This document shows, one piece after another, positions 34,151 through 52,977 of a stretch of DNA of 64,000 nt (its first letter is position 1; each line of letters begins with the position of its first letter). Position numbers and translations under genes: made by a program. Under the pieces are notes generated by a model. The model searched no databases, was not told where the DNA came from, and saw nothing but the letters and a program-made list of their open reading frames with translations. The stretch comes from Nitrosopumilaceae archaeon (GTDB lineage Archaea > Thermoproteota > Nitrososphaeria > Nitrososphaerales > Nitrosopumilaceae): assembly GCA_965207375.1 (NCBI GenBank), contig OZ242274.1, positions 576,001-640,000 of the forward strand, in the 5' to 3' direction.

Positions 34151-34185
34151 CCGTCAAAACATCCGTAAGGAGGTGAAAAGAAAGG

Positions 34186-35277
34186 ATGAAAACATACATT
34201 GGAATAGACATTGGAAAGAAAAAGTGTGACGTATGCGTCATAAATGGTACAGGACGAGTACTTGAGACCTGTCAGTATATGAACACGGTAGCAGATGCTA
34301 AAAAGTTTGCAGAAACCATGGCACGAAAATACACGGGAAATAAAAAAACATGCAGTGCTGCATGTGAAACTACAGGCAACATGTGGAATGTTACCTATGC
34401 TAAATTTGAGGCAGCAGGTATACCAATCAAGCTTGCAAATACGTACAAGATGGCCATAATTGCCAAGACTGGTAAAAAGACAGACAAGGTGGATGCACAA
34501 AAGATAGCACAGGTATTACGAATGGATATGATTCCAGAATGTTATGTACCAAAACCGGACATACGAGGAATACGTGCAATGATACGACAGCATATCAAGA
34601 TAGTACATGATAGGACACGAGTGATAAACAGAGTACGCAGTCTTTTAGACAGACATGATGTCTCAATTGATACAGTACAAGTATATGCAGTAAAGACAAT
34701 GCAGTATCTAGAGTCTGTATCTCTTGATGAAATACATGATGAAATAATTCTGCAGCAATATGTCCGACAGATCAGACATCTGACCGAAGAGTTGACCAAA
34801 ATGAATGATTACATAGAACAAGAGGCAGCAAACAACGAGTATGCCAAACTATTGACAAGCATGACAGGGATGGGAACATATACTTCATTGTTGCTAGCAG
34901 TCGAAATTGCAGACATTTCAAGATTTGATAATCCAAAGAAACTTGTTGCATGGGCAGGTCTGTGTCCTACCATACACCAGTCAGGAGATCAAAAATATCT
35001 TGGAAGGATGAAGAAACTAGACACCAACAGTATAGTGAATTGGGCAATGTGCGAGGCAGCAAATGTGGCAGTAACACATGACCCTAGGATGAAATCAATA
35101 TACGAATCTGCAAAAAGGCGACATGCAGACAAGCATGCACTTGCAGTTGTTGTAGTTGCAAACAAGATGATAACAATATCATGGCACATTCTGAACACAA
35201 AGACACCATATTCGTCACACAATACAAGATTGTATCAGCGCAAGCTTGCTAAATTGGAAAAGGCACGTCAGAAATGA
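34186..35277 (+). CDS. IS110-family DEDD recombinase (transposase)
   Basis: YIGIDIGK, ACETTG, KTDKVDA, AWAGLCPTIHQSG (catalytic Ser) and VANKM motifs. Confidence 0.95.
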   Translation: MKTYIGIDIGKKKCDVCVINGTGRVLETCQYMNTVADAKKFAETMARKYTGNKKTCSAACETTGNMWNVTYAKFEAAGIPIKLANTYKMAIIAKTGKKTDKVDAQKIAQVLRMDMIPECYVPKPDIRGIRAMIRQHIKIVHDRTRVINRVRSLLDRHDVSIDTVQVYAVKTMQYLESVSLDEIHDEIILQQYVRQIRHLTEELTKMNDYIEQEAANNEYAKLLTSMTGMGTYTSLLLAVEIADISRFDNPKKLVAWAGLCPTIHQSGDQKYLGRMKKLDTNSIVNWAMCEAANVAVTHDPRMKSIYESAKRRHADKHALAVVVVANKMITISWHILNTKTPYSSHNTRLYQRKLAKLEKARQK

Positions 35278-47811: not shown

Positions 47812-49275
47812 TCACGGATATGCCAACTCTTTAACTAGCAAGGAATCAACATCTGAAATTTTAACTCTAGACTGTTCCATAGAGTCTCGCCTTCTTATCG
47901 TTATTGTGTGATCCTCTAGTGTCTGATGATCAACTGTTATTGCAAATGGACAACCAACTTCATCTAATCTGCGATATCTCCTACCTATTGCTCCTGAATG
48001 ATCCAAGAACGCATCAACCTTTGTTCTAATCTCTTTAAAAATCTCGTCTGTCTTTTCTTTTAATCCATCCTTTTTTACTAGCGATAAAACTCCTACATGA
48101 ACCGGAGACAGGTATGGTCGCAAAGCAAGATAAATCCTTTCATTTTCAGCGTCTTTGTGTATGCAGTGTTCCAAAATAGTGTACAAGCTACGGTCTATTC
48201 CCATTGAGATTTCAAATACATGTGGCAAAACTTTTTGTTCATCATCCATCACCTCAAACTTTTCCTTGCTTTTCTTTGCGTGATTTGCCAAATCATAATC
48301 TGATCTATAATTACACGCTACAAGCTCAAGCCATCCTGTTGTTGTTTTGACTTCAAAATCAAAGGCAACTTTTGCATAAAATGCCTTTTCTTTGTCTCCC
48401 AATTTCCTAAATCTGCTTTGAGTCATATCAATTCCGGTCTTGCTGTAAAATTCGGCCAAAATTCCCAAATAATAGGCCACAAATTTGTTTGGAACCAAGC
48501 CTGTATCTATTGCCTGCTGACATGTAACCTGTTTTAATTCCGAATCCGTCTGTATCTGGATTTTTGTATCTTTGACCTCGTCAAACTTTTCTAATTCATC
48601 TAGCTTTTGTGGATTGCAAAACACCTCTATTTCTGCCTGATAAAATTCCCTTAATCGAAGCAAACTCCGCCTAGGCGCTATCTCGTTTCTAAAACTTTTT
48701 CCTACCTGTGCAATACCTTGCGGAAGTTTCCCCCTCATTATCTTGAACAATCTTGGAAAGTCAACAAAAATTGATTGGCATGTTTCAGGTCTCAAATATG
48801 CAGGTTCACCCTCTGGACCAATTCCTACCTGAAACATCATGTTGAATTTTCTCGTACTTTCAAAATCACCCTTACATTTTGTACACTTGATGTTATTTTC
48901 TAAAATCACCTTGTCAAATTCTGCACTATCTGCACTTTCAGGAATCTCAATATTGAAATTCTCTAAAATCATTCTATCTGCTCTAAATGTTGCCTTGCAC
49001 TTTGTACATTTTACAATTGGATCTGCAAAACTTGCAAGATGCCCTGATGCCTCAAACACTGATTTGGACATAATCTGGGATCCGTCAATCTCAAGCATGC
49101 CATCACGTCTGACCAATTCACGCCTCCACAGCTCCAAAAACTTGTTTTTCATACTTACACCGGGTGGACCATATTCCCAAAATCCTGCTTGTGCGTCTCC
49201 ATAAACCTCACAGCTTGGAAAGTAAAACCCTCGTTCTAGGGCAAGCTTCATCACATCATCATATTGCATGGACAT
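47812..49275 (-). CDS. glyS: Glycine--tRNA ligase (alpha2 type)
   Basis: EASGH, LRPETCQ, FRNEIAPR, REFYQAE, SGAIGRRYRR motifs. Confidence 0.95.
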   Translation of the reverse strand: MSMQYDDVMKLALERGFYFPSCEVYGDAQAGFWEYGPPGVSMKNKFLELWRRELVRRDGMLEIDGSQIMSKSVFEASGHLASFADPIVKCTKCKATFRADRMILENFNIEIPESADSAEFDKVILENNIKCTKCKGDFESTRKFNMMFQVGIGPEGEPAYLRPETCQSIFVDFPRLFKIMRGKLPQGIAQVGKSFRNEIAPRRSLLRLREFYQAEIEVFCNPQKLDELEKFDEVKDTKIQIQTDSELKQVTCQQAIDTGLVPNKFVAYYLGILAEFYSKTGIDMTQSRFRKLGDKEKAFYAKVAFDFEVKTTTGWLELVACNYRSDYDLANHAKKSKEKFEVMDDEQKVLPHVFEISMGIDRSLYTILEHCIHKDAENERIYLALRPYLSPVHVGVLSLVKKDGLKEKTDEIFKEIRTKVDAFLDHSGAIGRRYRRLDEVGCPFAITVDHQTLEDHTITIRRRDSMEQSRVKISDVDSLLVKELAYP

Positions 49276-49444
49276 TACTGATTTTTGGTTAGTAATTAAA
49301 TGCTAAGATCAAGTCATCAGACACTCAAATTTATAGTGGTCTTTACCATCAGTATCTATGTGCAGTCTTAATAAAGACTTGGTTGGATTTTGCTAGTTGG
49401 AGTATGACTTTCACTAGAACAATACTTTTTCAAAAATGAAGGTC

Positions 49445-49563
49445 GGAAATGTATCTATTCGGGCATTAAATCCCAGTACCATGCTTCATCCATTCATTAG
49501 GGTCAAAGTGTAGTTAGTTCCCCGGGCATCGAATCCCATACTGTGATCACACAAATCCCTAAC
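49445..49563 (-). ncRNA. Predicted bridge/seek RNA of IS1111 element 2
   Basis: Two loops with the internal hairpin GGG-ATTYRATG-CCC; guides GGAACTA/CAGTA and ATAGATA/ATGGT match target and donor; ends approximate. Confidence 0.85.
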
Positions 49564-49578
49564 CATAATGATATCATC

Positions 49579-50787
49579 TCAACTTCGCAGCTGACGTGCA
49601 GTGCTCTTTTGTCCCTCCTTTATACACGTCTCAAAATCAATCTGTTTAATCAACATCCAAAATACACTTTTTAATAATTTGGCAGCAGCTGCTACCCTGG
49701 CCTTTGACCTCCCACGCCTTTTTGCAAGACGTTTGTAAAACACACTAACAGGCGTATATGATTCCCTTTTCTCGGTGACTGCTAGATGTGTAACTACTGC
49801 CTCGACAAGTGCGTGTCTTACTAGAGATGCGCCCATCTTTGTTATGTGTCCATGATGGACAGTATCTGCAGAACGTCTAACTGATGGAACCAATCCAAAA
49901 TACGATGCCAGATGATCTTCATCAGAAAACCTTGCAATATCATCTATTTCAGAAGACAACACAAGTGCAGTATAGTTGGCTATTCCGGGTATCGTGGTGA
50001 GAAGTTGTGCGTTTTTATCCTCCTGTACCTGTTGTTTGATTTGCAGGTTGGCATACGTGATACTGTCTGTAACAGAGGCTAGATTCTTTAGATGCTGGTC
50101 TATTCTCCAGTTGTTTAGCTGGAGCAGTCTCTTTGTATATGGTCCACAAAACGGCGTTCCAGGTATGTCAATGCCTTCCTGTAACAAGATTCCGTGTATC
50201 ATGTTCTTAAAGCGAGTAGACTCTTGGACCATCTTGTGTCTGTATCTGACAAGCTGTTGCTTTTTTACAGTGTTTTCATCTGGTACATGGCATGCTGCAA
50301 CATAATCTCCACGCAGGAGGTCTGCAAGTATTTGCGCATCTACCTTATCTGTCTTCTTTTTAGACTCTGCAATGAGCCTTGTTTTGTATGGGTTAGATAA
50401 TGTTACGTCTAGTTTCAGCTTATCTGTGAGCATACGGTATATGCCGTACCATACAGATGATGATTCTAGTACGTATTTTGCATTCTTTGGCATTTTGGAA
50501 AACGCCTTTTTGATTGCAACCGGATTGCACTCTATCCTGCGGTTCTCATGCACCTTGCCGTCTTTATCCATTACTGCGACCTGCATGAATTTTTTGTGTA
50601 GATCTATTCCAACAAAGTATTTGGGTTTGGTTTTGGGGGTGTTGTTTTGGCCTGTCTTAGATGTCTTTACCTTTGAATTTGTTTTTTTGACAGACCTCAC
50701 ATTTTTTGGATTTTTTTTGCATAATCTGTTTGTTTGCTTTTTGGTAGCATTACCGGTACCATCTAAACCAGAGTTTTTTCGGGGCAC
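49579..50787 (-). CDS. IS110-family DEDD recombinase with Lys-rich N-terminal extension
   Basis: FVGIDLHK, VLESS, KTDKVDA, IPGI, YFGLVPSVRRSA and VAAAAKL motifs. Confidence 0.94.
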   Translation of the reverse strand: MPRKNSGLDGTGNATKKQTNRLCKKNPKNVRSVKKTNSKVKTSKTGQNNTPKTKPKYFVGIDLHKKFMQVAVMDKDGKVHENRRIECNPVAIKKAFSKMPKNAKYVLESSSVWYGIYRMLTDKLKLDVTLSNPYKTRLIAESKKKTDKVDAQILADLLRGDYVAACHVPDENTVKKQQLVRYRHKMVQESTRFKNMIHGILLQEGIDIPGTPFCGPYTKRLLQLNNWRIDQHLKNLASVTDSITYANLQIKQQVQEDKNAQLLTTIPGIANYTALVLSSEIDDIARFSDEDHLASYFGLVPSVRRSADTVHHGHITKMGASLVRHALVEAVVTHLAVTEKRESYTPVSVFYKRLAKRRGRSKARVAAAAKLLKSVFWMLIKQIDFETCIKEGQKSTARQLRS

Positions 50788-50816
50788 ATATGGTTAGTTC
50801 CGATTTTAAATCCAGA

Positions 50817-51974
50817 TCACGTCGATTTATTGGGGGGCGGCCAAGTTGAATGACACTCAAAATATGCATGAGCCATCTGCATTACAAAGGCTACAAGTGT
50901 AATATTGTATGTCTGATGGGCAACCTCTATCCGCGAATCTATCCATATGTTAGATAGGATTACAGCTACGATAAACATCAGCATCCGCATTGAGGAATTC
51001 TTGCTTGTGGTGTATGGACGTATAGATTTTACCTGCTTGTATCCCGTCTCAATCCCCCATCTCTTTTTGTATGCTTCAGGAATGTATTTCAACATGTCAT
51101 CAGAATCTGTACACGGAAGCGATGTTGCAAACACATGATATCTCTCAAAGATATTTTTTGCATCAGGTTTTTTGGGATTTGGTACTATGATCAAATTAAA
51201 TTCAAATCCATTATCAAAGGTATACTGTGATATTGCATCGCGCTTTCCTTGGGCATATTGAGATATTGCCTTTTTGATTCCCGCATTCTTTACTGCAGGC
51301 ATTATGAAATGTTTTTTGAGATTCTGTATTGTATCCATAACATCAGATGCATAAAACTCGCGGTCCAACAAGTATATGTTCACATCAGCACCCAAATTAT
51401 CGCATTTTTGTATGGTTTTACGCACGAATTCAGGGTTAAACTTGTTCCGAGTTACTGGAACCATTGCAAGATGAAATTCTTTTGCACCTGAGACCATCTT
51501 GGCAGTCATGTATGCTTCAAAGACGTATGTTCCTGCATGATGCTTTGAGTATACCATATCTGTCATGTCAGGGTCTTTGTCATAGTGTGGGATCTTGTGT
51601 TTGTCTATTGCTGCAACGCGCGTCTGGTTGTTGCCGTTTCTGCGGTCCAGCTTCATTTGGCGTACATCAACAGTATCGTGTATCATCTTTTCTCCATGTT
51701 TTATCATGTCGTCATGATCGATTGGGGTTATCTTTTGTACAAGCCAGTCTCCGCCTGGAATATCTATTCCTGAAGGAGCGTATTGGTGTGCACTGTTGGC
51801 AGCCACGCCGTATACTGACATGACCTGTAGCATGTTGACTGCGTTTGAGAGTCCATACCTCGTGTTGTTTCCTGTTCCAAACGAAATGGGCAGCCTGCCT
51901 AATGCAGATTGAAATACTTTAAACCCTCGTGTTCCGGATTTTATTGGGATATCTTGCCCATCTTTTTCTCTCAA
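50817..51974 (-). CDS. ISH3-family DDE transposase
   Basis: AAID, LLDREFY, FIMPA, FATS and YKKRWGIETGYK motifs. Confidence 0.9.
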   Translation of the reverse strand: MREKDGQDIPIKSGTRGFKVFQSALGRLPISFGTGNNTRYGLSNAVNMLQVMSVYGVAANSAHQYAPSGIDIPGGDWLVQKITPIDHDDMIKHGEKMIHDTVDVRQMKLDRRNGNNQTRVAAIDKHKIPHYDKDPDMTDMVYSKHHAGTYVFEAYMTAKMVSGAKEFHLAMVPVTRNKFNPEFVRKTIQKCDNLGADVNIYLLDREFYASDVMDTIQNLKKHFIMPAVKNAGIKKAISQYAQGKRDAISQYTFDNGFEFNLIIVPNPKKPDAKNIFERYHVFATSLPCTDSDDMLKYIPEAYKKRWGIETGYKQVKSIRPYTTSKNSSMRMLMFIVAVILSNIWIDSRIEVAHQTYNITLVAFVMQMAHAYFECHSTWPPPNKST

Positions 51975-52134
51975 GGTTAAGATGGGTAGGATTATTCCGT
52001 TATTTGGATCGGTATGTCAAAAAATATTGTCTAAATAGTGACCTGTGATCTATAATCGGAACTACTGACCATACATGTAATTGCCCAATCCTAATAATGC
52101 TCAATTGTCTAGTTTTTTCAAATTCTATCTTTTT

Positions 52135-52977
52135 TCATTTGGCAAGTGACTTTACCACTTTAATATTATCAAAGTCTGTACGAGTTTCATCGATGGGAGT
52201 CTCTAAAATTATCGGTATATTTTTACCATTGATAATCTTGATAATTTCCCTCATGCCTGTTTCTCCAATATTTCCCAATCCTATGTGATAATGCCTGTCC
52301 AAATTATTGCCAAGCTCCCCCCTAGAGTCATTTAGATGTAAAATTTTTAAATGTTTAAAACCAATTGCCTTGTCAAACTTTGCAAACGTTTCTCTTACCG
52401 TTTTTGAAGTTCTAAGATCATATCCTGCAGCAAATGCATGACACGTATCAAAACAAACCCCAAACCGATTTGCCGGTTTTAGTTGAAATAGTATTTCTGC
52501 CCACTGTTCAAAGTCAGAGCCGACTGAGTTTTTTTGTCCTGCAGTATTTTCCAAAAGTATCATTGTGTCGTTATCCACCTCCGCTGCCTTGTTCAGTGCC
52601 TTTACAAGTCTCTTGATACCTGCCCCCTCTCCTGTTTCTAAATGGCTGCCTAGGTGTGTAACCAAATACGGAATACTCAACCGTCCACACCTTTCAACCT
52701 CTTCTACAAGTGCATTTACTGATTTTTCAAATGCTTCTGCATCAGGTGTTGCAAGATTTGGCAGATACGGCATATGAGCTACTGTTGCCATTTTGTCAAT
52801 CTCTGATCTTTGGATTTTTTCTTTAAAGACTGAACAATCCTTGTCTGTAAGTGCTTTTGCATGCCAGCTTCTAGGACTTCTAGTGAATATTTGAAATGCC
52901 GTACACTTTCTTTCTATTGCATTATCTACTGCCTTGTCTACAGATCCTGAAATTGAGACATGGCATCCTACCTGCAT
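52135..52977 (-). CDS. nfo: Endonuclease IV
   Basis: GCHVS, QIF, HMPYLPNL, LENTAGQ, DTCH, HLNDS, DRH and ILETP motifs. Confidence 0.95.
   Translation of the reverse strand: MQVGCHVSISGSVDKAVDNAIERKCTAFQIFTRSPRSWHAKALTDKDCSVFKEKIQRSEIDKMATVAHMPYLPNLATPDAEAFEKSVNALVEEVERCGRLSIPYLVTHLGSHLETGEGAGIKRLVKALNKAAEVDNDTMILLENTAGQKNSVGSDFEQWAEILFQLKPANRFGVCFDTCHAFAAGYDLRTSKTVRETFAKFDKAIGFKHLKILHLNDSRGELGNNLDRHYHIGLGNIGETGMREIIKIINGKNIPIILETPIDETRTDFDNIKVVKSLAK

What the first reader, a model, noticed from the sequence alone, without database searches (positions are those of the whole stretch)
49345..50808. Bridge-RNA element 2: IS1111-type recombinase inserted 3 bp inside the ISH3 terminal repeat
Seen on the minus strand: junctions ATCGGAAC-TA-ACCAT (core 50796-50795) and CATAGA-TA-CTG (core 49354-49353) give target GGAAC-TA-CTG and donor ATAGA-TA-ACCAT. 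Excision restores TIR CAGTAGTTCCGATT and the ACCAT TSD pair. The downstream RNA has two loops. Target loop: TTAGGG..GTGT..CACAG-TA-T-GGGATTCGATGCCC-GG-GGAACTA..ACAC..CCCTAA; GGAACTA (49521-49515) equals target-left plus core (7/7), and CAG-TA pairs with TA-CTG, matching exactly up to the IS tip, beyond which flanks vary. Donor loop: ATGGT-AC-T-GGGATTTAATGCCC-GA-ATAGATA; ATGGT (49482-49478) is 5/5 and ATAGATA (49458-49452) is 7/7. The other ISH3 end (GGAACTACTG, 52058-52067) is an unoccupied target.
Basis: partly seen in the sequence, partly recalled or inferred. Interest (0 to 1): 0.93.

Follow-up and report, generated by a model that had tools for sequence, protein, structure and literature searches.

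The report
Archaeal IS1111-type element with bridge RNA
A small mobile element in an ammonia-oxidising archaeon carries a recombinase plus a two-loop guide RNA whose loops spell out its own ends and its landing site, the tip of another transposon; it is a clear but expected archaeal example of the known bridge-RNA system.

Summary
A 1,440-bp IS110-family element (49355-50794, minus strand) lies between two TA cores, 3 bp inside the 14-bp terminal repeat of an ISH3-like IS. A 100%-identical second copy sits in the other end of another ISH3 fragment, and window 52057-52067 is the matching empty site, which fixes the boundaries.

The 3' non-coding region encodes a ~144-nt RNA with two stem/internal-loop/hairpin modules. 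This RNA is conserved behind related recombinases in 35 of 41 loci. In the 38 aligned matches 95.6% of pair cells are paired and 17 of 24 pairs show compensatory changes.

All four loop strands covary with their DNA partners across relatives (cognate against permuted flanks, 0 of 20,000 permutations each). In this genome the GGAAC guide goes with three insertions at GGAAC-TA ends, while four GGAAG-TA ends are empty. A 91% variant copy carries GGAAG in its guide.

The architecture matches published IS1111 seekRNA/bridge RNA: RNA downstream, and the top-strand complement 5' of the bottom-strand complement. Not shown here: expression, circles, activity.

Verdict: a real, well-resolved new member of a known kind. 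The scan found the same kind before in another Nitrosopumilaceae genome (e1-5476666).

The parts
49355..50794 (-). Body of the IS1111-type element (1,440 bp) between the two TA cores; begins ACCATATGTGC, ends GCACATAGA
   Evidence: Filled/empty site comparison with copy 2 and window 52057-52067
50795..50796 (-). Left copy of the TA core (crossover dinucleotide)
49353..49354 (-). Right copy of the TA core
49579..50787 (-). Recombinase ORF, 402 aa from a GTG inside the left subterminal repeat. The conserved domain starts at residue 58. The true start codon is uncertain (Lys-rich N-terminal extension).
   Evidence: PF01548 + PF02371. NF033542 at 217.7 bits. Aligned to ISCro4 and IS621 transposases.
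50784..50790 (-). Left subterminal inverted repeat TATGTGC (4 nt in from the left end)
   Evidence: Read; conserved as ..TATGTG in relatives
49357..49363 (-). Right subterminal inverted repeat GCACATA (2 nt in from the right end)
   Evidence: CACAT(A/G)GA conserved in relatives
49429..49572 (-). Bridge/seek RNA region, about 144 nt (extent of the covariance-model match; true RNA ends unknown)
   Evidence: Model R1 match at 133.4 bits; structure counts
49539..49543 (-). Target loop, 5' strand: CAGTA, the complement of core + right target (TA-CTG) on the top strand
49515..49521 (-). Target loop, 3' strand: GGAACTA, identical to left target + core, so it pairs with the bottom strand
49478..49482 (-). 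Donor loop, 5' strand: ATGGT, the complement of the element's first 5 nt (ACCAT)
49452..49458 (-). Donor loop, 3' strand: ATAGATA, identical to the element's last 5 nt + core
49368..49375 (-). A/T-rich box TTTATTAA at a fixed distance from the right end; a possible archaeal TATA box that faces the recombinase start only in the circular form (inferred)
   Evidence: TTWWWA starts 20-21 nt before the last IS base in 27 of 32 right ends
50797..52067 (-). ISH3-like host IS (transposase ORF 50817-51974). Its left tip CAG (49350-49352) is split off by the insertion.
52058..52067 (+). Unoccupied cognate target GGAAC-TA-CTG at the other ISH3 end
49345..49349 (+). ACCAT, left copy of the 5-bp target duplication of the ISH3-like IS (right copy at 52068-52072)
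   Evidence: One contig of run X3 joins 49344 to 52068 with a 5-letter overlap.

Best explanation
This is an IS1111-group (IS110-family) insertion sequence of an ammonia-oxidising archaeon. It encodes a DEDD/Ser recombinase and, downstream of it, a ~144-nt bridge (seek) RNA made of two stem/internal-loop/hairpin modules.

First module (target loop). The 5' strand (CAGTA) pairs with the top strand of core + right target (TA-CTG). The 3' strand (GGAACTA) pairs with the bottom strand of left target + core (GGAAC-TA).

Second module (donor loop). The 5' strand (ATGGT) and the 3' strand (ATAGATA) do the same for the element's left end (ACCAT) and its right end + core (ATAGA-TA). These two ends abut in the excised circle.

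The recombinase, held on the RNA, would exchange strands at the TA core. That places the circle 3 bp inside the terminal repeat of ISH3-like elements, always pointing outward. ISH3 ends therefore serve as repeated, harmless landing sites.

Shown here:
- the boundaries, by a filled and an empty site;
- the protein family;
- the conserved RNA structure;
- four-fold guide/DNA covariation;
- the match between single-base guide variants and occupied or empty sites.

Inferred from the published bacterial systems:
- transcription and processing of the RNA;
- RNA-protein binding;
- a circular intermediate;
- strand exchange at TA.
For: (1) Boundaries. Two 100%-identical copies are compared with an empty site that has the same left flank.

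(2) Protein.
- PF01548 + PF02371; NF033542 'IS110 family RNA-guided transposase' at 217.7 bits against a cut-off of 140.
- The alignment to the ISCro4 transposase shows GID (D62), E108, TDKVDA (D147, D150) and GLVPSVRRS (S306) in the conserved blocks.

(3) RNA.
- Model R1 finds it in 35 of 41 loci that hold related recombinases (38 matches) and at 5 places in this genome.
- On the MAFFT alignment of 18 sequences, 93.8% of cells are paired against 30-47% when partners are slid. 11 of 24 pairs change on both sides. No shuffle reached the observed covariation score (0 of 500).
- On the 38 model-aligned matches, 95.6% are paired and 17 of 24 pairs are compensatory.

(4) Guides (36 of 38 rows used, 30 with each flank found).
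- Left-target guide, contiguous match of 4 or more next to the core: 13 of 30 cognate against 10 of 870 non-cognate. Sum 79 against 13.8 +/- 4.9 permuted.
- Right-target guide, shared word of 5 or more: 19 of 30 against 53 of 870. Sum 156 against 94.4 +/- 5.4.
- Donor 5' strand against left end: 137 against 123.9 +/- 2.5. Switches seen: ACCAT/ATGGT, ACTAT/ATAGT, ACCGT/ACGGT, GTCAT/ATGAC, ATCAT/ATGAT.
- Donor 3' strand against right end: 202 against 163.2 +/- 7.7.
- In each of the four tests, 0 of 20,000 permutations reached the observed value.

(5) Within this genome.
- All 3 junctions of the GGAAC-guide element lie at AATCGGAAC-TA in ISH3-family ends.
- The 4 ends of two 98%-identical ISH3 copies read GGAAG-TA-CTG and are empty.
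- The 91% variant copy 3 has GGAAG-TA in its guide.
- In genome G004 an element with a GGAAG guide sits at ...GGAAG-TA/TA-CTG (L031, L034), and in L034 an ISH3-like gene lies beside it.

(6) The strand order and the downstream position agree with IS1111 seekRNAs (PMC11187229, sections 6 and 9) and with bridge RNAs in the IS1111 right end (PMC11208160, passages).
Against: - No RNA data: no RNA run holds the stretch, so transcription is unproven.
- No circle junction and no precise-excision joint was seen in contigs of four DNA runs. Contigs drop rare forms.
- The fold energy is no better than shuffles. No Rfam family matches.
- The window's own target match is short, 5 + 2 + 3 nt.
- Six other perfect GGAACTACTG sites in the genome are unoccupied. 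About 8 such sites are expected by chance in 4.3 Mb. The 10-bp match alone therefore does not explain the restriction to ISH3 ends. Selection against insertions in genes, low activity, or extra recognition must be invoked.
- In relatives, 17 of 30 left flanks match the guide by 3 nt or fewer. Several right-guide matches need a 1-2-nt shift of register.
- Kin are not independent, so the permutation figures overstate significance.
- The Ser motif reads SA, not the SG/TG typical of IS1111.
Confidence: 0.88

Rival explanations
1. The element is a genuine IS110-family IS, but the conserved downstream RNA-like region is a recombinase-binding or regulatory 3' region. Target choice would be made by the protein, and the loop/target matches would be incidental.
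For: The window's own target match is short (5 + 2 + 3 nt). 17 of 30 relatives show 3 nt or fewer of left-guide match. Six perfect 10-mers elsewhere in the genome are unoccupied. No RNA evidence exists.
Against: All four loop strands covary with their DNA partners, and no permutation reached the observed value (0 of 20,000 each). A single-base guide difference (C or G) matches occupied against empty ISH3 ends. The layout equals experimentally proven seekRNA/bridge RNA.
Confidence: 0.05
2. The system is as described but no longer active in this genome. The copies would be fossils spread by duplication or by movement of the host ISH3 rather than by their own RNA-guided transposition.
For: Only two intact copies exist. 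Copy 4 is truncated and copy 3 is a chimera whose left end does not fit its donor loop (3 of 5 pairs). One cognate ISH3 end is still empty. No circle or excision joint appears in contigs.
Against: The two full copies are 100% identical over 1,462 bp, with intact ORFs. They lie in opposite ends of different ISH3 copies with different outer flanks. This requires separate, recent, site-specific insertions. Copy 4 sits in a third, only 68%-identical ISH3-like element.
Confidence: 0.07

Closest known systems
IS1111-family elements with a downstream seekRNA (ISEc11, ISPa11, ISKpn4, ISPst6; Siddiquee et al. 2024, PMC11187229, sections 6, 9 and 13 read)
   Same: A DEDD recombinase with the PF02371 C-terminal domain. 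The long non-coding region lies downstream. Subterminal inverted repeats are present. The RNA holds one stretch complementary to the top strand 5' of one complementary to the bottom strand of the target. Each element group has its own target.
   Different: The host is archaeal. The RNA modelled here is longer (about 144 nt, against the 82-96-nt predominant seekRNAs) and includes a second, donor-matching module. The Ser motif is GL-P----SA. The recombinase ORF may carry a ~55-aa Lys-rich N-terminal extension. No experimental data exist.
IS621 / IS110-group bridge RNA (Durrant et al. 2024, PMC11208160, passages read; structures 8WT6 and others)
   Same: A two-loop RNA with one loop for the target and one for the donor, each reading both strands around a 2-nt core. 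The recombinase aligns to the IS621 transposase (E = 2.5e-6).
   Different: In IS621 the RNA is in the left (upstream) end and the order of the guide strands is reversed (PMC11187229 abstract). The core here is TA. The paper says many IS1111 orthologues hold their donor-binding nucleotides in a multiloop. Here both modules are simple internal loops.
[quoted passage not shown]
   Same: An IS1111-type element whose specific target lies inside the terminal inverted repeat of another transposable element.
   Different: Bacterial, and the host element is a Tn3-family transposon. Here the host is an archaeal ISH3-like IS, and the cut lies 3 bp from the tip.
ISHvo9 of Haloferax volcanii pHV4 (closest named IS in the plasmid collection)
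   Same: An archaeal IS110-family transposase, 37% identical over residues 58-382.
   Different: RNA model R1 finds nothing within 1.2 kb of the ISHvo9 gene. The RNA family defined here is therefore specific to the Nitrosopumilaceae-type clade, or too diverged to be seen.

Membership tests
IS110 family (DEDD RNA-guided recombinases) | N-terminal DEDD/RuvC-like domain plus C-terminal Transposase_20 domain | tested here: met
   PF01548 E = 4.3e-23 and PF02371 E = 5.2e-21. NF033542 at 217.7 bits against a cut-off of 140.
IS110 family (DEDD RNA-guided recombinases) | Catalytic D-E-D-D and the conserved Ser of the G--P----S motif | tested here: met
   The alignment to ISCro4 (9T56) places D62 (GID), E108, D147 and D150 (TDKVDA) and S306 (GLVPSVRRS) in identical blocks. 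Which residues are catalytic is taken from the literature, not tested.
IS1111 group | Long non-coding region downstream of the recombinase gene | tested here: met
   224 nt downstream (49355-49578) against 7 nt upstream of the GTG. Criterion from PMC11187229 section 6.
IS1111 group | Subterminal inverted repeats of 7-17 bp | tested here: met
   TATGTGC (50790-50784) and GCACATA (49363-49357): 7 bp, the lower limit. Conserved in relatives.
IS1111 group | GL-P----S(T)G motif, and a recombinase related over its full length to that of IS1111 | tested here: inconclusive
   The motif reads GLVPSVRRSA, that is SA and not SG/TG. No tree with reference IS1111 and IS110 proteins was made. The closest named relative is ISHvo9 at 37%.
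Bridge RNA / seekRNA | Conserved structured RNA in the non-coding end | tested here: met
   95.6% of cells paired; 17 of 24 pairs with changes on both sides; slid controls 27-48%.
Bridge RNA / seekRNA | Loop strands complementary to both strands of the target around the core, and covarying with the target | tested here: met
   Window: CAGTA and GGAACTA. Across relatives, cognate exceeds permuted for both strands, with 0 of 20,000 permutations reaching the observed value. Caveat: 17 of 30 left flanks match by 3 nt or fewer.
Bridge RNA / seekRNA | Second loop matching the element's own two ends (donor) | tested here: met
   ATGGT and ATAGATA. Five kinds of left end pair with matching donor strands, and A/G at the right end is concordant in the 28 rows that score 6 or more.
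Bridge RNA / seekRNA | RNA is expressed, binds the recombinase and is required and reprogrammable for recombination | not testable with these tools
   No RNA run holds the stretch. A bench assay is needed.
Bridge RNA / seekRNA | Circular intermediate with abutted ends | tested here: inconclusive
   No circle or excision joint appears in contigs of 4 runs. Contigs cannot show rare forms.
ISH3 family (host IS) | Transposase reaches the curated ISH3 model cut-off | tested here: not met
   NF033541 is the best match, but at 137.1 bits against a cut-off of 225. PF01609 DDE domain present. 14-bp terminal repeats and a 5-bp duplication. Best called ISH3-like.

The most novel reading that the evidence does not exclude
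The element and its ISH3-like host would be in a guide-versus-repeat chase. A single base next to the crossover core (C or G in GGAAC/GGAAG-TA-CTG) decides whether an ISH3 end can be hit. ISH3 copies would escape by changing it, and the element would follow by the matching one-base change in its guide RNA gene, as in copy 3 and in the G004 element. A second part of this reading concerns the tandem right-end duplications seen in relatives: the guide-coding DNA itself would act as a pseudo-target for self-insertion. A third part concerns a conserved A/T box at the right end: it would form an archaeal TATA promoter for a leaderless recombinase mRNA only in the circle.
Probability: 0.25. Interest if true: 0.6.

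Novelty: new member of a known kind. Interest (0 to 1): 0.42.

Why it matters
It gives a cleanly delimited natural archaeal bridge-recombinase system. Both ends, the core, an empty site and a filled site are known, as are two natural guide variants and a family of about 38 related RNAs with a structure model.

That is a ready substrate for testing whether RNA-guided recombination works the same way in Archaea. It could also supply mesophilic archaeal orthologues for tool development. It is also a good case for studying how one IS parasitises the ends of another.

It does not change what is known about the mechanism.

Tried and rejected
- Rfam: no family matched 48500-52500 at E up to 1.
- Single-sequence folding: the whole 246-nt region folds differently from the local two-module fold. 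Neither fold beats shuffles, so the structure rests on comparison only.
- Expression: no RNA holder was listed for the stretch.
- Mobility in reads: only contigs were available. They show no joint that removes the IS1111-type element alone and no circle junction. One contig of X3 (depth 36, side 25 letters, weak) joins 49344 to 52068. That is the site without the whole ISH3 + IS1111 composite.
- Reach of the RNA model: R1 found nothing around ISHvo9. It also found nothing in L058, in the three distant loci (about 35% identity) L020, L021 and L028, or in the 3'-truncated L023.
- Nested insertion in L047 (G395): I tested whether one copy sits inside another copy's RNA gene. The left flank of the upstream copy is ordinary DNA and holds no 5' half of an RNA gene. 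The simple nested form is therefore rejected. Self-insertion followed by deletion between the repeated left parts remains possible.
- Apical hairpins: the idea that the two hairpins of one element are copies of each other is weak (edit distance 3 or less within an element in 5 of 38, against 40 of 1,406 between elements).
- Copy 3 as proof of retargeting: its left flank is not a GGAAG end and its left end is foreign. It shows only that the guide variant exists.
- Supplementary tables of the two 2024 papers could not be opened. They may already list archaeal elements of this clade.
- 'Not in print' rests on (IS110 + ammonia-oxidizing archaea + insertion sequence: 2 papers, listing only, neither on guide RNAs; listings).
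Full report
**1. What is there**

On the minus strand, 49579-50787 is a 402-aa ORF. It carries the two Pfam domains of IS110-family recombinases (PF01548, PF02371). It passes the NCBIfam model 'IS110 family RNA-guided transposase' at 217.7 bits against a cut-off of 140. By sequence it aligns to the solved ISCro4 and IS621 transposases. The conserved acidic blocks GID, E and TDKVDA and the GL-P----S block are in place: D62, E108, D147, D150 and S306.

The genome is archaeal and ammonia-oxidising. It has an archaeal-model SSU rRNA at 1,445 bits. It has an archaeal AmoA at 382 bits, a model that rang in none of 14 control genomes.

**2. Boundaries**

The genome holds the following copies:
- A second copy, 100% identical over 1,462 bp, at C1:1528332-1529793.
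- A 5' half (copy 4).
- A 91% variant (copy 3).

Copies 1, 2 and 4 share ...AATCGGAAC-TA-ACCATATG on the left. Copies 1, 2 and 3 share ...CATAGA-TA-CTG on the right. Beyond these words the flanks differ.

The left flank of copy 2 is letter for letter the sequence that precedes window 52057-52067. There it continues CGGAAC-TA-CTG|ACCAT without any insertion. So the element is ACCAT...ATAGA (49355-50794, 1,440 bp). It lies between two copies of a TA core, and its target is GGAAC-TA-CTG.

The left-neighbouring ORF (50817-51974) is a DDE transposase, and its best family match is ISH3. The score is 137.1 bits, below the curated cut-off of 225, hence 'ISH3-like'. With the element removed, that IS has perfect 14-bp terminal repeats (CAGTAGTTCCGATT) and a 5-bp duplication, ACCAT.

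**3. The RNA**

The 224 nt between the stop codon and the right end fold locally into two modules. Each is a basal stem, a large internal loop and a G-rich apical hairpin. Thermodynamics alone is not significant (z = 0.73), so comparison decides.

Related recombinases (41-59% identity) occur in 30 of 401 sampled genomes of the same family at E <= 1e-70 (a first sample is). Their downstream regions align.

| Measure | A1: MAFFT alignment, 18 sequences | A2: 38 model-aligned matches |
|---|---|---|
| Pair cells that are standard pairs | 93.8% | 95.6% |
| Same, with 3' partners slid by 1-3 columns | 30-47% | 27-48% |
| Pairs changed on both sides | 11 of 24 | 17 of 24 |
| Shuffles reaching the observed covariation score | 0 of 500 | 0 of 500 |

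RNAalifold independently predicts four of the five helices. A2 is fitted to the model, so its counts lean towards the structure.

A covariance model built from A1 (R1) finds the RNA in 35 of 41 loci examined (38 matches). It finds the RNA at 5 places in this genome: three copies, the 46%-identity sister element at C1:355789-355953, and a decayed remnant. No Rfam family matches.

**4. Guides**

In the window:
- Target loop, 5' strand: CAGTA, the complement of TA-CTG.
- Target loop, 3' strand: GGAACTA, equal to GGAAC-TA.
- Donor loop, 5' strand: ATGGT, the complement of the first five bases, ACCAT.
- Donor loop, 3' strand: ATAGATA, the last five bases plus the core.

All four words together appear in 2 of 200,000 shuffles of the non-coding region.

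The stronger test is covariation across relatives. Ends were located only by the subterminal repeat motifs. Of 38 rows, two were dropped: the truncated L044 RNA and the partial L047:924 hit. Each flank was found for 30 rows.

| Loop strand and its DNA partner | Cognate | Non-cognate | Observed sum | Permuted sum |
|---|---|---|---|---|
| Left-target guide, contiguous match of 4 nt or more next to the invariant TA | 13 of 30 | 10 of 870 | 79 | 13.8 +/- 4.9 |
| Right-target guide, shared word of 5 nt or more with the flank | 19 of 30 | 53 of 870 | 156 | 94.4 +/- 5.4 |
| Donor 5' strand against the element's left end | not counted | not counted | 137 | 123.9 +/- 2.5 |
| Donor 3' strand against the element's right end | not counted | not counted | 202 | 163.2 +/- 7.7 |

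No permutation out of 20,000 reached the observed value in any of the four tests.

The donor 5' strand follows the left end through these switches: ACCAT/ATGGT, ACTAT/ATAGT, ACCGT/ACGGT, GTCAT/ATGAC and ATCAT/ATGAT. The donor 3' strand follows the right end between ATAGA and ATGGA.

Against this reading:
- 17 of 30 left flanks match by 3 nt or fewer.
- Some right-guide matches sit 1-2 nt out of register.
- The sequences are kin, so these figures overstate independence.

**5. A natural specificity experiment in this genome**

- The window's ISH3 copy, and the fragment hit by copy 2, read GGAAC-TA-CTG at their ends.
- Two other full ISH3 copies (98% identical) read GGAAG-TA-CTG at all four ends, and none is occupied.
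- The element's guide reads GGAAC-TA. Copy 3 reads GGAAG-TA.
- Copy 3 is a chimera with a foreign left end (3 of 5 donor pairs).
- In genome G004, elements with only about 51% protein identity (L031, L034) carry GGAAG-TA and CAGTA in their target loop. They sit at ...GGAAG-TA / TA-CTG. In L034 an ISH3-like transposase gene lies beside the element.
- Copy 4 lies in a third ISH3-like element, only 68% identical.

A caveat: six further perfect GGAACTACTG sites elsewhere in the genome are empty. About eight such sites are expected by chance. Ten base pairs alone therefore do not explain the restriction to IS ends. Purifying selection against insertions in genes, or added recognition, is needed.

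**6. Comparison with what is known**

- IS1111-family elements have the long non-coding region downstream, subterminal repeats, and a seekRNA in which the top-strand complement lies 5' of the bottom-strand complement (PMC11187229, sections 6 and 9). All three hold here.
- Durrant et al. predict bridge RNAs in the right end of 93% of IS1111 elements (PMC11208160, passage).
- Archaeal IS110 recombinases are known, 662 in one survey (bioRxiv 10.1101/2024.06.21.599552, passage).
- IS1111 members that target terminal repeats of other transposons are known: IS4321 and IS5075 (reference entry, mention).
- The closest named element in the plasmid collection is ISHvo9 at 37% identity. R1 does not match near it.
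- The scan itself reported the same kind of element in another Nitrosopumilaceae genome (e1-5476666).

This is therefore a new member of a known kind.

**7. What is not shown**

- Transcription: no RNA holder was listed.
- The circular form and excision: only contigs were available.
- RNA-protein binding and guide-dependent activity.
- The recombinase start codon. The GTG lies inside the left repeat, and the 57-residue Lys-rich extension is not shared by all relatives.

**8. Side observations**

- An A/T box (TTWWWA) starts 20-21 nt before the last base of the element in 27 of 32 right ends. In the circle it would lie about 29-30 nt upstream of the GTG. That is the geometry of an archaeal TATA box with a leaderless mRNA (inference).
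- Some relatives carry a tandem duplicate of the 3' part of the element, starting at an internal TA. In L047 this TA is exactly the guide-coding TA. L036 and L057 show similar duplicates. The simple nested-insertion explanation failed.

Noticed in passing
window 34177-35079 (+), second copy at G000:C1:1246066-1246968: A second, distant IS110-family recombinase gene (29% identity to the one studied) lies in the same window.
   Followed up: no
window 49368-49375 (-), and 32 right ends in related loci: A conserved A/T-rich box (TTWWWA) starts 20-21 nt before the last base of the element in 27 of 32 right ends. In the excised circle it would sit about 29-30 nt upstream of the GTG in the left repeat, like an archaeal TATA box for a leaderless mRNA.
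   Followed up: partly
L047:745-1068 (G395); also L036 (G000:C1:355600-356060) and L057: A full element is followed by TA and then a second copy of its own 3' part. In L047 the duplicate begins exactly after the guide-coding TA of the target loop. This suggests self-insertion into the guide DNA followed by deletion. The left flank showed no matching 5' half.
   Followed up: partly
G000:C1:47131-48580 (copy 3; L033, L039): A chimeric element. Its 3' part is 91-95% like the window element but carries GGAAG in the guide. Its 5' part and left end are like the 46%-identity sister element at C1:355949-357022. The left end does not fit its own donor loop.
   Followed up: partly
window 49344 / 52068: One contig of run X3 (depth 36 against about 148 nearby; 25 letters on the shorter side) joins 49344 to 52068 with a 5-letter overlap. 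That is the locus without the ISH3 + IS1111 composite, which hints that the ISH3 insertion is polymorphic in that sample.
   Followed up: no
L013 (G001:C20), flanks of the element: The same 29-bp sequence flanks the element on both sides. It is preceded on the left by a fragment resembling a donor-loop hairpin, which suggests a rearranged tandem or remnant copy.
   Followed up: no
G000:C1:552131 (copy 4) = position homologous to window 50138: Copy 4 is cut off at this point by another repeated sequence, also seen as a loose end in run X1. This is probably a further IS inserted into it.
   Followed up: no
G000 as a whole: At 4.3 Mb the genome is about twice the size of most genomes of its family in the sample (0.8-2.5 Mb for most). 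It holds many IS110-family hits: 19 tblastn rows.
   Followed up: no
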